The translations under genes were made by a program, and so were the position numbers. From positions 5-64,004 of the forward strand of contig DATAOC010000059.1 in NCBI GenBank assembly GCA_036265915.1: a DNA stretch of 64,000 nucleotides. Reading direction: 5' to 3'. Numbering within the stretch: position 1 is the first letter of the stretch; the number at the start of each line of letters is the position of its first letter. This DNA is from Candidatus Methylomirabilota bacterium. Lineage in GTDB: Bacteria > Methylomirabilota > Methylomirabilia > Rokubacteriales > CSP1-6. The notes under the pieces were generated by a model that was not told where the DNA came from, ran no database searches, and worked only from the letters and a program-made list of their open reading frames with translations. Below, piece after piece: positions 41,844 through 47,139 of the stretch.

Positions 41844-44129
41844 ATGGCGGCCGACGCCCCCTTTCCGGTCCTGGAGCGCATCCAGCGCAAGATTCTCTGG
41901 CTGAGCACGTGGATGGTGCACCACGCGAACAGCCGCCCGAACGCCGACGGCACGAAAGTCGGAGGTCACCAGGCGTCGTCGGCATCCGCGGTGAGCCTGC
42001 TGACCGCGCTCTATTTCCACGCACTACGGCCGGGCGACGTCGTCGCGACCAAGGCGCATGCCTCGCCCGCGTTCTACGCCATCCAGTACTTGCTGGGACG
42101 GCTCGATGCCGATGCCCTGCGGCGCCTCCGCGCGTTCGGTGGCCTCCAGGCGTATCCGAGCCGGAGAAAGAATCCCGACATCGTGGACCTGTCCACCGGG
42201 TCCATGGGTCTCGGCGCCGTCATGGCGACGTTCGGCGCCCTCGCCACGCGGTACGTCGCCGACCACGGCGGCGCCGCCATGCCCGAGCGCTTCATCGCGA
42301 TGCTCGGAGACGCCGAGCTCGACGAAGGCAACGTCTGGGAGGCGCTCGCCGAGGAAACCGTCCGCGGTCTGGGGAACCTGCTGTGGATCGTGGACGTCAA
42401 TCGCCAGAGTCTCGACCGGGTGGTCCCGGAGACGCGCACGCGGCAGCTGGCGGCGCTGTTCGAGGCGAGCGGCTGGCGCGTTCACGAGCTCCGGTGGGGC
42501 CAGCGGCTGCAGCGCGTGTTCCGCCGGCCGGGCGGGGAGGCGCTGGCGCAGCGGCTCGAGTCGATGCGCAGCGTGGAGTACCAGAGGCTGTTGCGGCTTC
42601 CGGCAGGATCGGTACGCAAGGCACTCGTCGCGCGCGCGGATGGCGGCATGGATGGCGCGCTCGATCGTCTCCTCGCCGATGTTCCGGATGACGCGTTGCC
42701 GTCGCTGGTGGCCGATGTCGGCGGTCACGACCTCGCGCAGATCGTCGACGCCTACGCGGCGGCGTCACGGGAGCGGGGGCGACCGTCGGTGATCCTCGCG
42801 CACACGATCAAGGGATTCGGCTTGCCGTTCGCCGGCGACCCGCTGAATCACACGATGGTCACGAGTGCCGCGCAGATCGCCGACGTGCGCCGCGCGCTCG
42901 GCGTCGCCGAAGGCGAGGAGTGGTCGGCGTTCGAGCCCGAGAGCGATGAGGCGCGTTTGGTGCGCGCGCGATCGGACCTCTACGCGAGTCCCGCCCGGGG
43001 CGCTCCGCCGGCCGTGCCGGCATCCCTCGGGGAGACGTACGCGGGTGAGATGTCCACGCAGGAGGCGCTGGGCCGCGTGCTCGGCGGCCTCGGTCGCACC
43101 GCGGGCGGCGATGCCGTGGTCACGGTGTCCGCCGACGTGGCGATCACGACGCATCTCGCGGGCTGGATCAACCGGAAGGGCGTCTACTTTCCCGTCGCGC
43201 GTGAGGATCCGTTCGCCGATACGTCACAGGCCCTCGCGTGGAAGGAGTCGCCGCTCGGGCGCCACATCGAGCTCGGCATCGCCGAGCAGAATCTGTTCTT
43301 GATGCTGGGCGCGCTCGGGTTGACGGCGGAGCTCTCCGGCACCACGCTGCTGCCCATAGGGACGCTCTACGATCCATTTGTCCCACGCGGTCTCGACGCC
43401 CTCTATCACGCGCTCTATGCCGGTGGCCGGTTCGTGGTGGCGGCCACGCCGTCCGGTGTGAGCCTGGCACCCGAGGGCGGAGCGCACCAGTCGGTGATCA
43501 CGCCCGGCATCGGTGTCGCGCTGCCGGCGCTCACGTACTTCGAGCCGGCGTTCGGGCAGGAGGTCGAGTGGATTCTTCTCGACGCGCTCTCCGCGATCGC
43601 GGCGCGGGATGGCGAGAGTCTCTATCTCCGACTCTCGACACGCCCCGTCGATCAAGCGCTCGCTCCCCCCTCGACGGCCGCGCAGCGGCGTGCGGTGCTT
43701 TCCGGCGGCTACCGCCTGCTCGACGGTCGAGCGCAGCCGCGCTACCGCGTGGACCGGGCGGTTCACGTGTTCGCCGCCGGCGTGATGGTTCCGGAGGCGC
43801 TGGCGGCGGCGCGCGCGCTGCGTGAGCTCGACGTCTTCGCGAACGTCTTCGTCGTGACGAGCCCAGACCGGTTGTACCGCGACATCCGAGCTCCGCGGCC
43901 GTATCTCGAGACGCTGGTGGGCGCCGACGAGGAAGACGTCCCCATCGTGTCCGTACTCGATGGGCATTCGCATGCGCTGGCGTTCCTCGGCAGCGCTCTC
44001 GGCGTTCCGCAGCTGCCTCTCGGCGTCGACCACTTCGGCCAGTCGGGATCGCGCGCGGAGCTCTACCACCACTACGGGATCGACCTGGATGCGATCGTCG
44101 ACGCCGCCCGGACGCTGCTCGCCGTCTGA
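41844..44129 (+). CDS. Homodimeric-type 2-oxoacid dehydrogenase E1 / transketolase-like ThDP enzyme (AceE-like)
   Basis: The N-terminus reads RIQRKILWLSTWMVHHAN..GGHQASSASAV. The ThDP motif is LGDAELDEGNVWEAL. Pyrimidine-binding and C-terminal domains are present. No E2 or E3 genes are nearby. Confidence 0.75.
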   Translation: MAADAPFPVLERIQRKILWLSTWMVHHANSRPNADGTKVGGHQASSASAVSLLTALYFHALRPGDVVATKAHASPAFYAIQYLLGRLDADALRRLRAFGGLQAYPSRRKNPDIVDLSTGSMGLGAVMATFGALATRYVADHGGAAMPERFIAMLGDAELDEGNVWEALAEETVRGLGNLLWIVDVNRQSLDRVVPETRTRQLAALFEASGWRVHELRWGQRLQRVFRRPGGEALAQRLESMRSVEYQRLLRLPAGSVRKALVARADGGMDGALDRLLADVPDDALPSLVADVGGHDLAQIVDAYAAASRERGRPSVILAHTIKGFGLPFAGDPLNHTMVTSAAQIADVRRALGVAEGEEWSAFEPESDEARLVRARSDLYASPARGAPPAVPASLGETYAGEMSTQEALGRVLGGLGRTAGGDAVVTVSADVAITTHLAGWINRKGVYFPVAREDPFADTSQALAWKESPLGRHIELGIAEQNLFLMLGALGLTAELSGTTLLPIGTLYDPFVPRGLDALYHALYAGGRFVVAATPSGVSLAPEGGAHQSVITPGIGVALPALTYFEPAFGQEVEWILLDALSAIAARDGESLYLRLSTRPVDQALAPPSTAAQRRAVLSGGYRLLDGRAQPRYRVDRAVHVFAAGVMVPEALAAARALRELDVFANVFVVTSPDRLYRDIRAPRPYLETLVGADEEDVPIVSVLDGHSHALAFLGSALGVPQLPLGVDHFGQSGSRAELYHHYGIDLDAIVDAARTLLAV

Positions 44130-44133
44130 CCAG

Positions 44134-44149
44134 CGGCACCCGGTTTGCT
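44134..44149 (+). promoter_or_regulatory. Sigma-54-like element P3 (CGGCAC-CCGGT-TTGCT)
   Basis: GGCAC (44135-44139), then 5 nt, then TTGC (44145-48), located 5 nt after the E1 stop and 100 nt upstream of ATG 44250. It resembles P1/P2 (GGYACCCGNYTTGCT). Confidence 0.45.
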
Positions 44150-44159
44150 ATCCCATGGG

Positions 44160-44174
44160 GGAACGGAACGTTCC
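44160..44174. promoter_or_regulatory. GGAAC-GGAAC-GTTCC element (contains the perfect palindrome GGAACGTTCC 44165-44174)
   Basis: It lies at the predicted start of the P3 transcript and is preceded by the palindrome CCCATGGG (44152-44159). It is a candidate operator. Confidence 0.3.
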
Positions 44175-44249
44175 TCCGCGGTGGCGCGACCGCCAGCGGC
44201 CGCTGGTGGCTGCGGTGGTCGCTGCCGCCCGGGGGGCGAAGCAGCGATC

Positions 44250-44927
44250 ATGAGCATGGCCGGCCATCCGAGCGTTACCTCCACGCTGTTCGACGTCGTC
44301 GCGCGTCGCGATCCTTCTGCGTGGCTTGCGCTGGCCCGAAATCCTACGGCCGCGCTCGTAGAGGCAGCCTTCGACGACGCGACGCGCCACGTCGGTCGCG
44401 CACCGCTCGCCCTCACTCCGGAAGAGCAGCAAGCATTGCGCGAAGCTGGCGTCACCTGGTCACTCGATGCCTGGTGTGTCGACGATGCCGCCCGGGTCGG
44501 ATTGCTCACCGCCGCCGCCGGCTGGTTGCACGCCGACGCGCTGCAGACGGTGATCGAGCGCCGCTGGGGCGCGGGCGATGGGCGTCAGCGGTGTGCTGTG
44601 CTCCGCGCGCTGCCGGTGCTTCCGTCGCCGGAGCGCTTCTTGGCCCTGGCGCTGCAGGCGCGGCAAGGCGCGGTGCGCCGGGTCTTCGAGGCGCTCGCCT
44701 GCGACAATCCGTACCCCGCAATCTATTTCCACGATGTGCATTTCACCGACCTCGTCGTGGCCGCGCTCGAGGCCGACCTGCCGCTTGCGCGCATTGTCGG
44801 CCTCGCCGAGCGCGTGAGCGGCGACCTCGTATCCCGCGCGCGCCGCTTCGCGGCGGCTCGCCGCGCGGCGGGTCGAAGCGTCCCCGCCGACCTCTGGCGC
44901 GTGAGCGGCGATCGGAGCGCGGCGTGA
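44250..44927 (+). CDS. Hypothetical helical protein, possibly EboA-like
   Basis: The motifs WCVDDAARVGLL, GDGRQRCAVLRALPVL and a C-terminal AARRAAGRSVPADLWRV resemble my memory of EboA-family proteins. No other ebo genes are present. I cannot verify this without a search. Confidence 0.4.
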   Translation: MSMAGHPSVTSTLFDVVARRDPSAWLALARNPTAALVEAAFDDATRHVGRAPLALTPEEQQALREAGVTWSLDAWCVDDAARVGLLTAAAGWLHADALQTVIERRWGAGDGRQRCAVLRALPVLPSPERFLALALQARQGAVRRVFEALACDNPYPAIYFHDVHFTDLVVAALEADLPLARIVGLAERVSGDLVSRARRFAAARRAAGRSVPADLWRVSGDRSAA

Positions 44928-45568
44928 GCGCCCGGCGTGCGGCGTCGACCGGATCCGCCGCCGATTTCCTGCCTGAGGAACGGACGCTGCCCGCGTTGCG
45001 AGAGGCCGCGGCTCATTGCCGCGGCTGCCACCTCTGGCAGCGCGGGACGCAAACGGTCTTCGGCGCCGGCCCGCGCCGCGCGCCCATCATGATGGTCGGC
45101 GAGCAGCCCGGAAACGACGAGGACCTGGCCGGGGCACCGTTCGTCGGGCCCGCGGGGCGTCTCCTTGACCGCGCGCTCGAGGAGGCGGGCATCGAGCGCC
45201 GCGATGTCTACGTCACGAACGTCGTGAAGCACTTCAAGTGGGAGCCGAAGGGCAAGCGGCGAATCCACGCCAAGCCGAACGCCCTCGAGATCTCCGCGTG
45301 CCTGCCATGGCTCGAGGCCGAGCTCGATATCGTCAAGCCGTCGATCGTCGTGTGCCTTGGCGCCACCGCGGCGCAGGCGCTGCTCGGCCCGAAGTTCCGT
45401 GTGACGCGCCAGCGTGGCGAGTGGGTGAGTGCGCGCTGGGCCCCGCACGTCATGGCGACGGTGCATCCGTCGTCGATCCTCCGTGCGCCCGACGAGGCCG
45501 CCCGCCATGCCGAGATGGAACGGTTTGTCGCCGACCTGACGTCGCTGCGCCGGGTCGTGCACCACTAG
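44924..45568 (+). CDS. udgX: UdgX-type family 4-like uracil-DNA glycosylase (DNA-crosslinking type)
   Basis: It has the Fe-S Cys CRGC, motif A GEQPGNDED, the UdgX-specific insertion KGKRRIHAKP (the KRRIH loop with the crosslinking His) and motif B ATVHPSSILR. GTG 44924 overlaps the upstream stop as GTGA. Confidence 0.8.
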   Translation: MSARRAASTGSAADFLPEERTLPALREAAAHCRGCHLWQRGTQTVFGAGPRRAPIMMVGEQPGNDEDLAGAPFVGPAGRLLDRALEEAGIERRDVYVTNVVKHFKWEPKGKRRIHAKPNALEISACLPWLEAELDIVKPSIVVCLGATAAQALLGPKFRVTRQRGEWVSARWAPHVMATVHPSSILRAPDEAARHAEMERFVADLTSLRRVVHH

Positions 45569-45663: not shown

Positions 45664-47139
45664 ATGGCGACGATATCGGTGGATCGCAAAGGGGCGCTGC
45701 GCCACGAGCTGGAGACCATCGTGGGTGCGGGTGGTGTGCTGTCTGATCCCGAGGAGCTGCTCGTCTACGAATCCGACGGCCTCACCCTCTTCCGGGCGCT
45801 CGCCGATTTCGTGGTCTTCCCGCGGTCCGCGGAGCAGGTGGCGGCGGTCGTGAAGGTGGCGAACCGCGAAAGCATCCCATTCGTCGCGCGCGGTGCAGGC
45901 ACCGGGCTGTCCGGTGGCTGCCTGCCTGCCGAGGGTGGCCTCGTCATCTCGCTCATGCGGATGAACCGCGTGCTCGAGGTGGACTACGACAACCAGATCG
46001 CGGTCGTTGAGCCCGGGCTCGTGAATCTCCACCTGTCCTGGGCGGTCGGGCCCCGCGGCTACTACTACGCGCCGGACCCGTCGAGCCAGCAGGCGTGCAC
46101 GATCGGCGGGAATATCGCGAACAATTCCGGCGGTCCCCATACGCTGAAGTACGGCGTCACCGTCAATCACGTGCTCGGTCTGGAGGTGGTCTTGCCGGAC
46201 GGCGAGATCGTCTGGCTCGGCGGGCGCACCCGCGATGCGCTCGGCTACGACATCGCCGGCGTGTTCGTCGGCTCTGAGGGCACGTTCGGGATCGCGACGA
46301 AGATCGTGGTCCGGATCATGAAGAAGCCGCAGGCGGTGAAGACGGTGCTCGCGGTCTTCGATCATGTGGATGGCGCGTCGGCGGCGGTCTCGTCGATCAT
46401 CGCGCGCGGGCTTGTCCCGGCCGCGGTCGAGATGATCGACCAGCTGACGATCCAGGCGGTCGAAGACGCATTCGGCTGCGGCTATCCGCGCGATGCCGCC
46501 GCGGCCCTGCTGATCGAGCTGGACGGGCTTGCCGTCGGCATGGAGAGCCAGGCGGAACGCATCGTCGCCGCGTGTCGCGAGGCCGGCGCGCGCGAGGTCC
46601 GCACGGCCGCCGACGAGGCGGAGCGCCAGCTGCTCTGGAAGGGCCGGAAGTCGGCGTTCGGCGCCTACGGACGCGTGTCGCCGGCATACATGGTGATGGA
46701 CGGCGTCATCCCGCGGACGAAGCTGCCGTACGTGCTGACGCGTGTGAACGAGATCGTCGCCGCGCACGGGTTGCGCGTGGGCAACGTGTTCCACGCCGGC
46801 GACGGGAACCTCCATCCGAACATCCTCTACGATCCGCGGAAGCCGGGCGAGGAAGCGCGCGTGGTGGAGGCGGGCGCGCAGATCATGAAGGTGTGCGCGG
46901 AGGTCGGCGGGTCGATCTCCGGCGAGCACGGCATCGGGCTGGAAAAGGCGGATTTCATGCCGTTCATCTTCTCGGCCGCCGACCTCGCCTTCATGCAGAA
47001 GCTGAAGGCGGCGTTCAACCCGACCGGTCTCTGCAATCCCGGCAAGATGTTTCCGACGAAGAAGTCGTGCGTGGAGGCCGGCCCCGTGGCCTATCGGCCT
47101 CACGCGATCGAAGCGCAGGGCCTCGCGCAACGCTTCTAG
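45664..47139 (+). CDS. glcD: Glycolate oxidase subunit GlcD (FAD-linked oxidase)
   Basis: It has an FAD_binding_4 pattern (VARGAGTGLSGG), a C-terminal GSISGEHGIG motif, and glcE/glcF follow it. Confidence 0.85.
   Translation: MATISVDRKGALRHELETIVGAGGVLSDPEELLVYESDGLTLFRALADFVVFPRSAEQVAAVVKVANRESIPFVARGAGTGLSGGCLPAEGGLVISLMRMNRVLEVDYDNQIAVVEPGLVNLHLSWAVGPRGYYYAPDPSSQQACTIGGNIANNSGGPHTLKYGVTVNHVLGLEVVLPDGEIVWLGGRTRDALGYDIAGVFVGSEGTFGIATKIVVRIMKKPQAVKTVLAVFDHVDGASAAVSSIIARGLVPAAVEMIDQLTIQAVEDAFGCGYPRDAAAALLIELDGLAVGMESQAERIVAACREAGAREVRTAADEAERQLLWKGRKSAFGAYGRVSPAYMVMDGVIPRTKLPYVLTRVNEIVAAHGLRVGNVFHAGDGNLHPNILYDPRKPGEEARVVEAGAQIMKVCAEVGGSISGEHGIGLEKADFMPFIFSAADLAFMQKLKAAFNPTGLCNPGKMFPTKKSCVEAGPVAYRPHAIEAQGLAQRF

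What the first reader, a model, noticed from the sequence alone, without database searches (positions are those of the whole stretch)
44250..45568. UdgX-type crosslinking uracil-DNA glycosylase translationally coupled to an EboA-like ORF
Seen in the sequence: the product of 44924..45568 has family 4 UDG motifs (CRGC Fe-S ligands, GEQPGNDED, HPSSILR) plus the insertion VKHFKWEPKGKRRIHAKP. Its GTG start overlaps the stop of the preceding 225-aa ORF as GTGA. That ORF carries the motifs WCVDDAARVGLL, GDGRQRCAVLRALPVL and RRAAGRSVPADLWRV. Established knowledge: the KRRIH loop is the signature of UdgX. UdgX was characterised in Mycobacterium smegmatis, and its His forms a covalent bond with the abasic site after uracil excision. 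Inference: this is a UdgX orthologue outside its best-known actinobacterial context. The tight coupling suggests a functional partner. The partner resembles EboA-family proteins from memory, yet none of the other ebo genes is present. A dedicated UdgX partner has not, to my knowledge, been described.
Basis: partly seen in the sequence, partly recalled or inferred. Interest (0 to 1): 0.65.

Follow-up and report, generated by a model that had tools for sequence, protein, structure and literature searches.

The report
UdgX gene with stray EboA-like neighbour
A soil Rokubacteria genome carries a genuine UdgX (a uracil-removing enzyme that bonds itself to DNA) directly behind a stray copy of EboA, a protein normally found in a metabolite-synthesis gene cluster; the pairing is an inherited quirk of one narrow lineage in which either gene is often lost alone, so it is probably not a dedicated partnership.

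Summary
ORF 44924-45568 is a bona fide UdgX: TIGR03914 scores 282 bits against a cut-off of 190, the match to M. smegmatis UdgX has E 4e-64, and GEQPG, KRRIH and HPSSILR are all in register. ORF 44250-44927 carries an EboA domain (NF035938, 108 bits against a cut-off of 50), and the two genes overlap as GTGA.

The "dedicated partner" reading is not supported.
- Of 86 EboA loci, about 75 lie in canonical ebo clusters. Only one monophyletic Rokubacteria clade lies in the E1-EboA-UdgX-GlcDEF context.
- Of 251 genomes in the phylum, 93 have UdgX, and EboA is adjacent to it in 5.
- Six genomes of the same genus keep the same locus and leader with an intact UdgX (82-85% identical) but no EboA. One of them keeps the first 27 EboA codons as a deletion scar.
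- Conversely, EboA persists under purifying selection beside dead or missing UdgX genes (G207, G206, G086, L004).
- On the E1 tree, EboA presence needs at least 4 changes.

The best reading is one ancient relocation of an eboA copy, followed by vertical descent and repeated independent loss of either gene. The EboA model is a confident all-alpha helical repeat with no solved relative, and its function remains unknown. This is an ordinary result with a minor curiosity.

The parts
44135..44149 (+). Sigma-54-type promoter-like element GGCAC-N5-TTGCT (GG-N10-GC), 6 nt after the E1 stop
   Evidence: Read directly from the sequence. The same GGCAY-N5-TTGCT element follows the E1 stop in 11 related loci, with or without the EboA gene. 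Function was not tested here; it was noted earlier as finding e1-4983321.
44166..44239 (+). Conserved leader hairpin. Its 5' arm UCCUCC pairs with the G-run (44231-44236) that lies 13 nt before the EboA ATG, which gives a Shine-Dalgarno-sequestering shape
   Evidence: MFE is -66.9 kcal/mol, z = -3.0 against shuffles. The consensus structure over 7 genomes has 28 pairs, 6 of them with compensatory changes. No Rfam family matches.
44250..44927 (+). Orphan EboA-domain gene (225 aa)
   Evidence: NF035938 scores 108 bits against a cut-off of 50; NF035937 scores 111 bits against a cut-off of 320. The identical database protein carries PF28008 EboA. The AF2 model has pLDDT 93 and is all-alpha. It belongs to a monophyletic orphan clade with 96/83 support. 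dN/dS in the clade is 0.18-0.36.
44914..44917 (+). GGAG Shine-Dalgarno for udgX, inside the 3' end of the EboA gene
   Evidence: Read directly from the sequence. The same bases are kept in the EboA-less relative G084.
44924..44927 (+). GTGA start/stop overlap (translational coupling signature)
   Evidence: The same 4-base overlap occurs in G079, G080 and G086 and in metagenome contigs.
44924..45568 (+). udgX (214 aa): family-4-derived uracil-DNA glycosylase with a crosslinking R-loop. GEQPG is at 45098-45112, KRRIH at 45254-45268 (His115), HPSSILR at 45464-45484
   Evidence: TIGR03914 scores 282.4 bits against a cut-off of 189.95. PDB 6ail gives E 4.3e-64, with KRRIH aligned to GKRRIH.
41844..44129 (+). 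Context: stand-alone E1-type ThDP enzyme, always upstream of the locus
   Evidence: Orthologues carry Transketolase_N, PDH_E1_M and Transketolase_C_1. E1 is syntenic in all related loci.
45664..47139 (+). Context: glcD, the first gene of glcDEF, always downstream of udgX in the genus
   Evidence: tblastn synteny shows 85-92% identity across relatives.

Best explanation
The locus is a small transcription unit placed between an E1-type ThDP enzyme gene and glcDEF. It consists of a sigma-54-like promoter element, a structured leader, an orphan EboA-domain gene and udgX.

UdgX function is inferred from full conservation of the catalytic set and from published work on M. smegmatis UdgX. It excises uracil from DNA, and His115 of the KRRIH loop, activated by the Glu of GEQPG, attacks C1' so that the protein becomes covalently attached to the abasic site.

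The upstream protein is a helical-repeat EboA paralogue. It left an ebo (thallusin-type prenylated cyclitol) cluster once, in an ancestor of this Rokubacteria family-level lineage, and landed between the leader and udgX. The adjacency and the GTGA coupling have since been inherited vertically. They couple expression, since udgX is translated in the wake of the upstream frame, but not function: either gene is dispensable without the other and has been lost independently several times. The biochemical role of the orphan EboA is unknown. It most likely still binds the same kind of small-molecule or protein ligand as cluster-borne EboA. Shown here: gene identities, distribution, phylogeny, losses and selection. 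Inferred: the catalytic mechanism, the expression coupling and the role of EboA.
For: Identity:
- establish UdgX.
- establish the EboA domain.

EboA is normally in ebo clusters:
- About 75 of 86 EboA loci have eboB-F within 8 kb.
- The 7 loci in the E1/UdgX context form one clade (96/83) nested among cluster EboAs.
- G079 and G080 carry both a canonical ebo cluster with its own EboA and the orphan copy.

UdgX without EboA:
- Of 251 genomes in the phylum, 93 have UdgX and only 5 have EboA next to it.
- Of 66 UdgX-centred metagenome loci with at least 800 bp upstream, 2 carry EboA.
- G081, G082, G084, G085, G088 and G089 (same genus), and G074 and G077, have E1-UdgX-GlcDEF with an intact UdgX (82-85% identical within the genus) and no EboA.
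- The promoter-like element and hairpin are kept in both EboA-bearing and EboA-less genomes.
- G081 keeps the first 27 EboA codons fused to the udgX start: alignment score 61 against shuffles of 24 +/- 4.

EboA without UdgX:
- G207 has an internally deleted udgX, G206 a frameshift at the CxxC, G086 an in-frame TAG, and L004 has no udgX.
- EboA dN/dS in the G206/G207 pair is still 0.29-0.35.

Vertical descent with repeated loss:
- The E1 tree needs at least 4 changes of EboA state, and the orphan-EboA tree mirrors it.
Against: - From the EboA side the link looks tight. 10 of 11 members of the orphan clade sit directly upstream of udgX or its remnant, and 7 of them show the identical 4-base overlap.
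- The orphan is under purifying selection and keeps all family-invariant residues, so it does something.
- Three of the four 'UdgX-less' cases rest on single defects in metagenome-assembled genomes, which could be assembly errors. Only the G207 deletion and the L004 absence are robust.
- Physical interaction could not be tested.
- Absence of an ebo cluster in the window's genome rests on an 87%-complete assembly.
Confidence: 0.7

Rival explanations
1. The orphan EboA-domain protein is a lineage-specific functional accessory of UdgX, for example an adaptor that modulates crosslinking, targets UdgX, or helps process the DNA-protein adduct. It was recruited from the ebo cluster and is kept translationally coupled to ensure stoichiometry.
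For: - The GTGA overlap is conserved in G000, G079, G080 and G086 and in three metagenome contigs.
- The orphan clade is monophyletic and is almost always next to udgX.
- dN/dS is below 0.4.
- A helical-repeat fold is typical of adaptors.
- In ebo clusters EboA likewise sits directly upstream of the next enzyme gene, eboB.
Against: - Orthologous UdgX at the same locus is intact without it in at least 12 genomes or contigs.
- EboA stays under selection where udgX is deleted.
- There is no adjacency in any other lineage.
- The whole NtrC-E1-UdgX-GlcDEF block is equally syntenic, so adjacency at this evolutionary depth is no signal of function.
Confidence: 0.13
2. The orphan EboA works in small-molecule metabolism, either with the neighbouring E1-type ThDP enzyme or glycolate oxidase genes, or in trans with an ebo cluster elsewhere in the genome. 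UdgX is an unrelated passenger in the same unit.
For: - E1 lies upstream in every orphan locus where the contig allows it to be seen, including L004, which lacks udgX.
- Canonical EboA belongs to a sugar-derived meroterpenoid pathway (bioRxiv 10.64898/2026.05.21.724671).
- 3 of the 6 orphan-bearing genomes (G079, G080, G207) also hold a canonical ebo-type EboA.
- All family-invariant residues are retained.
Against: - A promoter-like element and a hairpin separate E1 from EboA.
- E1 and glcDEF persist unchanged in all EboA-less relatives.
- The window's genome and G086 show no ebo cluster.
- EboA is itself a non-core ebo gene of unknown role.
Confidence: 0.12
3. The orphan EboA gene is a decaying relic with no remaining function. 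Only its translation, which drives udgX expression through coupling, is selected.
For: - It evolves about twice as fast as its neighbours: 51-56% identity against 73-92% for the flanking genes.
- It has been lost at least 4 times.
- EboA-less relatives keep short upstream frames that end in ATGA or GTGA on the udgX start.
Against: - dN/dS is 0.18-0.36, well below 1, even where udgX is dead.
- All 12 family-invariant residues are kept.
- There are no frameshifts or stops in any of the 7 genomic copies.
Confidence: 0.05

Closest known systems
Mycolicibacterium smegmatis UdgX (MSMEG_0265; PDB 6AIL, 6AJO, 6IOD; PMC4787834, PMC10359453)
   Same: The two proteins align over about 197 residues at E 4e-64. 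Motif A GEQPG, R-loop KRRIH and motif B HPSS(I/L)LR are in register, as are the N of VTN(V/A)VKHF and three Cys. Both are stand-alone proteins of about 210 aa.
   Different: The host phylum is different (Rokubacteria/Methylomirabilota). The gene sits behind a sigma-54-like element and a structured leader, and is translationally coupled to an upstream EboA-domain ORF. The window protein has a fourth Cys (C144) where the M. smegmatis protein has Leu. Its activity is untested.
EboA of the eboABCDEF cluster (eustigmatophyte/bacterial operon; PMC5133447, PMC6282210; thallusin preprint 10.64898/2026.05.21.724671)
   Same: It carries the same domain (NF035938, PF28008) and all residues that are invariant across 33 homologues. 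It also occupies the same position as first gene of its unit, immediately upstream of the next ORF.
   Different: It lies far below the EboA-family cut-off (111 against 320 bits). No eboB-F genes lie nearby or are detectable in the genome. It belongs to a separate fast-evolving clade confined to one Rokubacteria lineage.
Radical-SAM (TIGR03916) / DUF4130 (TIGR03915) / UdgX-domain (TIGR03914) cassette
   Same: It is the known case of a UdgX-family domain with a fixed neighbour.
   Different: The upstream ORF here does not match TIGR03915/DUF4130 at E <= 1. No radical-SAM gene is adjacent. The pairing here is not conserved across lineages.

Membership tests
UdgX (TIGR03914) | Score above the curated cut-off of the NCBIfam model | tested here: met
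   282.4 bits against a cut-off of 189.95, covering profile positions 35-229 of 231.
UdgX (TIGR03914) | R-loop KRRIH with R107 and H109 in register with M. smegmatis UdgX | tested here: met
   Query residues 110-115 (GKRRIH) are aligned to GKRRIH of 6ail. The His is residue 115.
UdgX (TIGR03914) | Motif A GEQPG (Glu52 dyad partner; Gln53 instead of the Ala/Gly of family 4) | tested here: met
   GEQPG at residues 59-63 aligns to GEQPG. The criterion comes from PMC10359453.
UdgX (TIGR03914) | Motif B HPS(S/A)(L/V)(L/V)R | tested here: met
   HPSSILR at residues 181-187 aligns to HPSSLLR. Ile replaces Leu/Val, a conservative change.
UdgX (TIGR03914) | 4Fe-4S cluster ligands | tested here: inconclusive
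   There are four Cys (32, 35, 126, 144). The first three align with Cys of M. smegmatis UdgX, and the fourth aligns with Leu there. Cluster binding was not tested.
UdgX (TIGR03914) | SDS-resistant covalent complex with uracil-containing DNA | not testable with these tools
   This needs purified protein.
EboA domain (NF035938 / PF28008) | Score above the domain model cut-off | tested here: met
   108 bits against a cut-off of 50, covering profile positions 1-139 of 140. PF28008 is precomputed for the identical protein P0003.
EboA family proper (NF035937, 'metabolite traffic protein') | Score above the family cut-off | tested here: not met
   111.3 bits against a cut-off of 320.
EboA family proper (NF035937, 'metabolite traffic protein') | Encoded in a cluster with eboB, eboC, eboE and eboF | tested here: not met
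   There are no eboB-E hits in the genome at 1e-5, and only 26-29% generic hits for eboF. The flanking genes are E1 and udgX.
DUF4130 / TIGR03915 (known UdgX-linked adaptor) | HMM match | tested here: not met
   There is no hit at E <= 1 in NCBIfam or Pfam.
Conserved two-gene functional module (EboA-like + UdgX) | Co-occurrence and adjacency across independent lineages, and co-loss | tested here: not met
   Adjacency is found in one clade only. The losses are independent: at least 4 changes of EboA state on the E1 tree, and udgX is dead or absent in 4 loci that keep EboA.

The most novel reading that the evidence does not exclude
In this Rokubacteria lineage a protein domain borrowed from a metabolite-biosynthesis cluster has become an accessory factor of the self-crosslinking glycosylase UdgX, for instance controlling when UdgX traps DNA or helping to remove the adduct. 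The pair would be expressed from a sigma-54 promoter through a Shine-Dalgarno-sequestering leader rather than from the SOS regulon seen for UdgX elsewhere. This would give the first clue both to EboA's molecular role and to UdgX's physiology.
Probability: 0.1. Interest if true: 0.6.

Novelty: new member of a known kind. Interest (0 to 1): 0.25.

Why it matters
The physiological role of UdgX and the molecular role of EboA are both unknown, so a real partnership would have been a useful lead. The survey shows that the pairing is one historical gene relocation, inherited and then eroded, so it should not be used to infer function for either family. Three things remain of modest use. First, UdgX is common in Rokubacteria (93 of 251 genomes). 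Second, an EboA-domain protein can persist under selection away from any ebo cluster. Third, this udgX sits behind a conserved sigma-54-like element and a structured leader, not an SOS box.

Tried and rejected
- **DUF4130/TIGR03915 identity of the upstream ORF:** no hit.
- **Sequence search of the EboA-like protein against PDB:** nothing at E <= 10.
- **Foldseek of its confident model against PDB:** best E 0.2 and TM below 0.4, with only generic ARM/HEAT/TPR-like solenoids, so no fold-based function.
- **Weak Pfam DUF2336 hit:** 16 bits against a cut-off of 34.6; ignored.
- **Rfam scan of the leader:** only sub-threshold chance hits.
- **Deletion scars in EboA-less genomes:** I looked for remnants of EboA. 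Only G081's upstream frame is statistically recognisable as the EboA N-terminus; the short frames in G082, G084, G085 and G089 are not distinguishable from shuffles. Long-gap DNA alignments beyond the leader were fragmentary.
- **LexA-type box in the leader:** the GAAC...GTTC palindrome is not conserved in relatives, so I dropped it.
- **Complex prediction:** not possible, because the structure tool takes single window-encoded proteins only.
- **My first automatic gene calls:** these mislabelled udgX in the GC-rich loci (cluster 22 was glcD). I corrected this with targeted tblastn.

Full report
**Observation**

The window has two same-strand ORFs exactly as described. ORF A runs from ATG 44250 to TGA 44927 (225 aa). 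ORF B runs from GTG 44924 to TAG 45568 (214 aa). They overlap as GTGA, and a GGAG lies six bases before the GTG.

**Identity of ORF B**

- It scores 282.4 bits on NCBIfam TIGR03914 'UdgX family uracil-DNA binding protein' (cut-off 189.95). It scores lower on generic family-4 UDG models.
- Against PDB sequences the best matches are the M. smegmatis UdgX entries (6ail, E 4.3e-64).
- In the printed alignment, GEQPG, VTN.VKHF, GKRRIH and HPSS.LR are in register. The His of KRRIH (residue 115) therefore corresponds to the crosslinking His109.
- These are the features that PMC10359453 gives as diagnostic: Q53, R107 and H109 co-occur in more than 98% of UdgX proteins.
- Three of the four Cys align with Cys of the mycobacterial protein.
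- ORF B is thus a UdgX family member by every sequence criterion. Its covalent chemistry is inferred, not shown.

**Identity of ORF A**

- It matches NCBIfam EboA_domain NF035938 (108 bits, cut-off 50). It falls far below the EboA-family model NF035937 (111 against 320 bits), and it has no DUF4130/TIGR03915 match.
- The identical database protein and all 120 listed homologues carry Pfam PF28008 EboA.
- An AlphaFold2 model built on 33 homologues is confident (pLDDT 93, pTM 0.89) and entirely alpha-helical, with 13 helices.
- Foldseek against the PDB gives nothing better than E 0.2 and TM below 0.4, all generic helical solenoids. A sequence search of the PDB finds nothing. The fold suggests a scaffold or ligand-binding repeat protein but gives no function.

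**Where EboA genes normally sit**

- A genome-collection scan with an alignment of 33 homologues returned 80 loci. With further loci from the phylum, 86 distinct EboA loci were classified.
- About 75 have eboB (TatD-like), eboF, eboC, eboE and/or eboD within 8 kb. The usual order is eboA-eboB-eboF. These loci come from Sorangium and other Myxococcota, Nitrospirota, Acidobacteriota, Binatota and many Rokubacteria.
- Seven loci, all Rokubacteria, instead lie in an E1-EboA-(UdgX)-GlcDEF context.
- On a maximum-likelihood tree these seven form one clade (support 96/83) with long internal branches, nested among cluster-borne EboAs.
- Two genomes of the window's genus (G079, G080) carry both a canonical ebo cluster with its own EboA and the orphan copy, so the orphan is a paralogue.
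- The window's own genome (87% complete) has a single EboA domain and no detectable eboB-E.

**The UdgX side**

- In 251 genomes of the phylum, 93 have a UdgX above the cut-off and 33 have an EboA domain. The two are adjacent in only five: G000, G079, G080 and G086 in the window's genus, and G206 in another genus. G207 has EboA beside a udgX remnant.
- A UdgX-centred scan of metagenome contigs returned the 80 closest relatives (63-85% identity). Of the 66 with at least 800 bp upstream, two carry EboA.
- Four metagenome contigs that encode the closest EboA relatives (56-78% identity) all show EboA followed directly by a UDG-family or cut-off ORF; the two contigs that reach far enough upstream also carry the E1 gene. 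Three of them have a 4-base overlap.
- So from the EboA-orphan side the adjacency is nearly constant, while from the UdgX side it is rare.

**Independent loss**

- Six genomes of the same genus (G081, G082, G084, G085, G088, G089), and G074 and G077 of sister genera, have the same block: NtrC-type activator, E1, UdgX, GlcD, GlcE. Their UdgX is intact (82-85% identical to the window's within the genus, 63-67% in G074 and G077), and no EboA gene lies between E1 and udgX. The gap is 48-217 bp, except in G077, where about 1.4 kb of unexamined sequence separates them.
- The sequence after the E1 stop is conserved whether or not EboA follows. It comprises a GGCAY-N5-TTGCT element and a long hairpin.
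- In G081 the frame that ends in GTGA on the udgX start is recognisably the first 27 codons of EboA. The alignment score is 61 against 24 +/- 4 for shuffles. This is a deletion scar.
- Conversely, EboA is intact where udgX is not:
  - G207 has lost the catalytic core of udgX by internal deletion.
  - G206 has a frameshift at the CxxC.
  - G086 has an in-frame TAG.
  - L004 has E1-EboA followed by an unrelated gene.
- dN/dS for the orphan EboA is 0.18-0.36, including 0.29-0.35 for the G206/G207 pair. This compares with 0.08-0.29 for UdgX and about 0.1 for E1 and GlcD.
- On an E1 tree of 19 loci, EboA presence needs at least four changes, all forced by well-supported branches. The branching order of the orphan EboAs mirrors that of E1. 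This points to one ancient insertion, vertical descent and repeated loss.

**Interpretation**

- The adjacency and the GTGA overlap are real and inherited. However, the whole block NtrC-E1-UdgX-GlcDEF is equally syntenic at this depth, so conservation of adjacency carries no functional signal.
- Either gene persists, under selection, without the other. I therefore read the pair as co-expressed but not co-dependent (confidence 0.7).
- A true accessory role for EboA (0.13), a metabolic role with E1 or ebo genes in trans (0.12), and a pure relic kept for translational coupling (0.05) remain possible.

**Comparison with the known**

- UdgX is documented in Actinobacteria and in alpha- and betaproteobacteria, with a scattered distribution and an unknown physiological role (PMC4787834, PMC10776899, PMC10359453). 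The known fixed neighbours of UdgX-family domains are DUF4130 and a radical-SAM enzyme, neither of which is present here.
- The ebo cluster is linked to scytonemin precursor export (PMC6282210) and, in a 2026 preprint, to thallusin biosynthesis. There EboA is 'uncharacterized' and not part of the conserved core.
- This locus adds a UdgX in another phylum and an orphan EboA-domain clade. Both are new members of known kinds.

**Limits**

- All relatives are metagenome-assembled genomes or contigs, so single stops and frameshifts may be assembly errors.
- Only the best 80 of 142 EboA loci were examined.
- No complex prediction or experiment was possible.

Noticed in passing
window 44166-44239 (+): There is a long conserved hairpin in the leader. 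Its UCCUCC arm pairs with the G-run 13 nt upstream of the EboA start, a Shine-Dalgarno-sequestering arrangement. It is conserved in 7 Rokubacteria genomes with and without the EboA gene. Of its 28 pairs, 6 show compensatory changes, and there is no Rfam match. It could be a translational riboregulator controlling udgX through coupling.
   Followed up: partly
window 44135-44149 (+): The sigma-54-type GGCAC-N5-TTGCT element right after the E1 stop is conserved as GGCAY-N5-TTGCT in 11 related loci. This udgX would then be sigma-54 dependent, unlike the SOS-controlled udgX genes noted elsewhere in this scan.
   Followed up: partly
L085-L090 (G081, G089, G085, G088, G084, G082), E1-udgX gap: In all six EboA-less genomes of the genus, the udgX start codon still overlaps a stop codon of an upstream frame (ATGA or GTGA). 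This hints that udgX translation depends on coupling even after the EboA deletion. Only G081's frame is provably an EboA remnant.
   Followed up: partly
L084 (G086), L091 (G206), L092 (G207): udgX is damaged in three genomes that keep EboA. G086 has TAG in place of the Tyr of DVYVTN, G206 has a frameshift inside the CxxC motif, and G207 has an internal deletion of the catalytic core. The first two could be assembly errors.
   Followed up: partly
G000 contig C56:14382-14870: A second, ordinary family-4 UDG (37% identical to the UdgX) lies elsewhere in the genome. Several genomes of the same genus also carry a second UdgX-class paralogue scoring 260-266 bits. Its context was not examined.
   Followed up: no
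L096-L101 (G079, G080, G090, G121, G138, G140): A second, very divergent type of cluster-borne EboA in Rokubacteria sits on a branch of length 1.7 away from all other EboAs, yet lies in ebo clusters.
   Followed up: no
L012 against L006: An EboA on a 2-kb contig binned as Rhodothermales is nearly identical to one from a Methylomirabilia genome (sister taxa, 98/98 support, short branches). This is probably a binning error rather than gene transfer.
   Followed up: no
L094 (G077): About 1.4 kb of unexamined sequence lies between E1 and udgX in this genome, where relatives have 48-217 bp.
   Followed up: no
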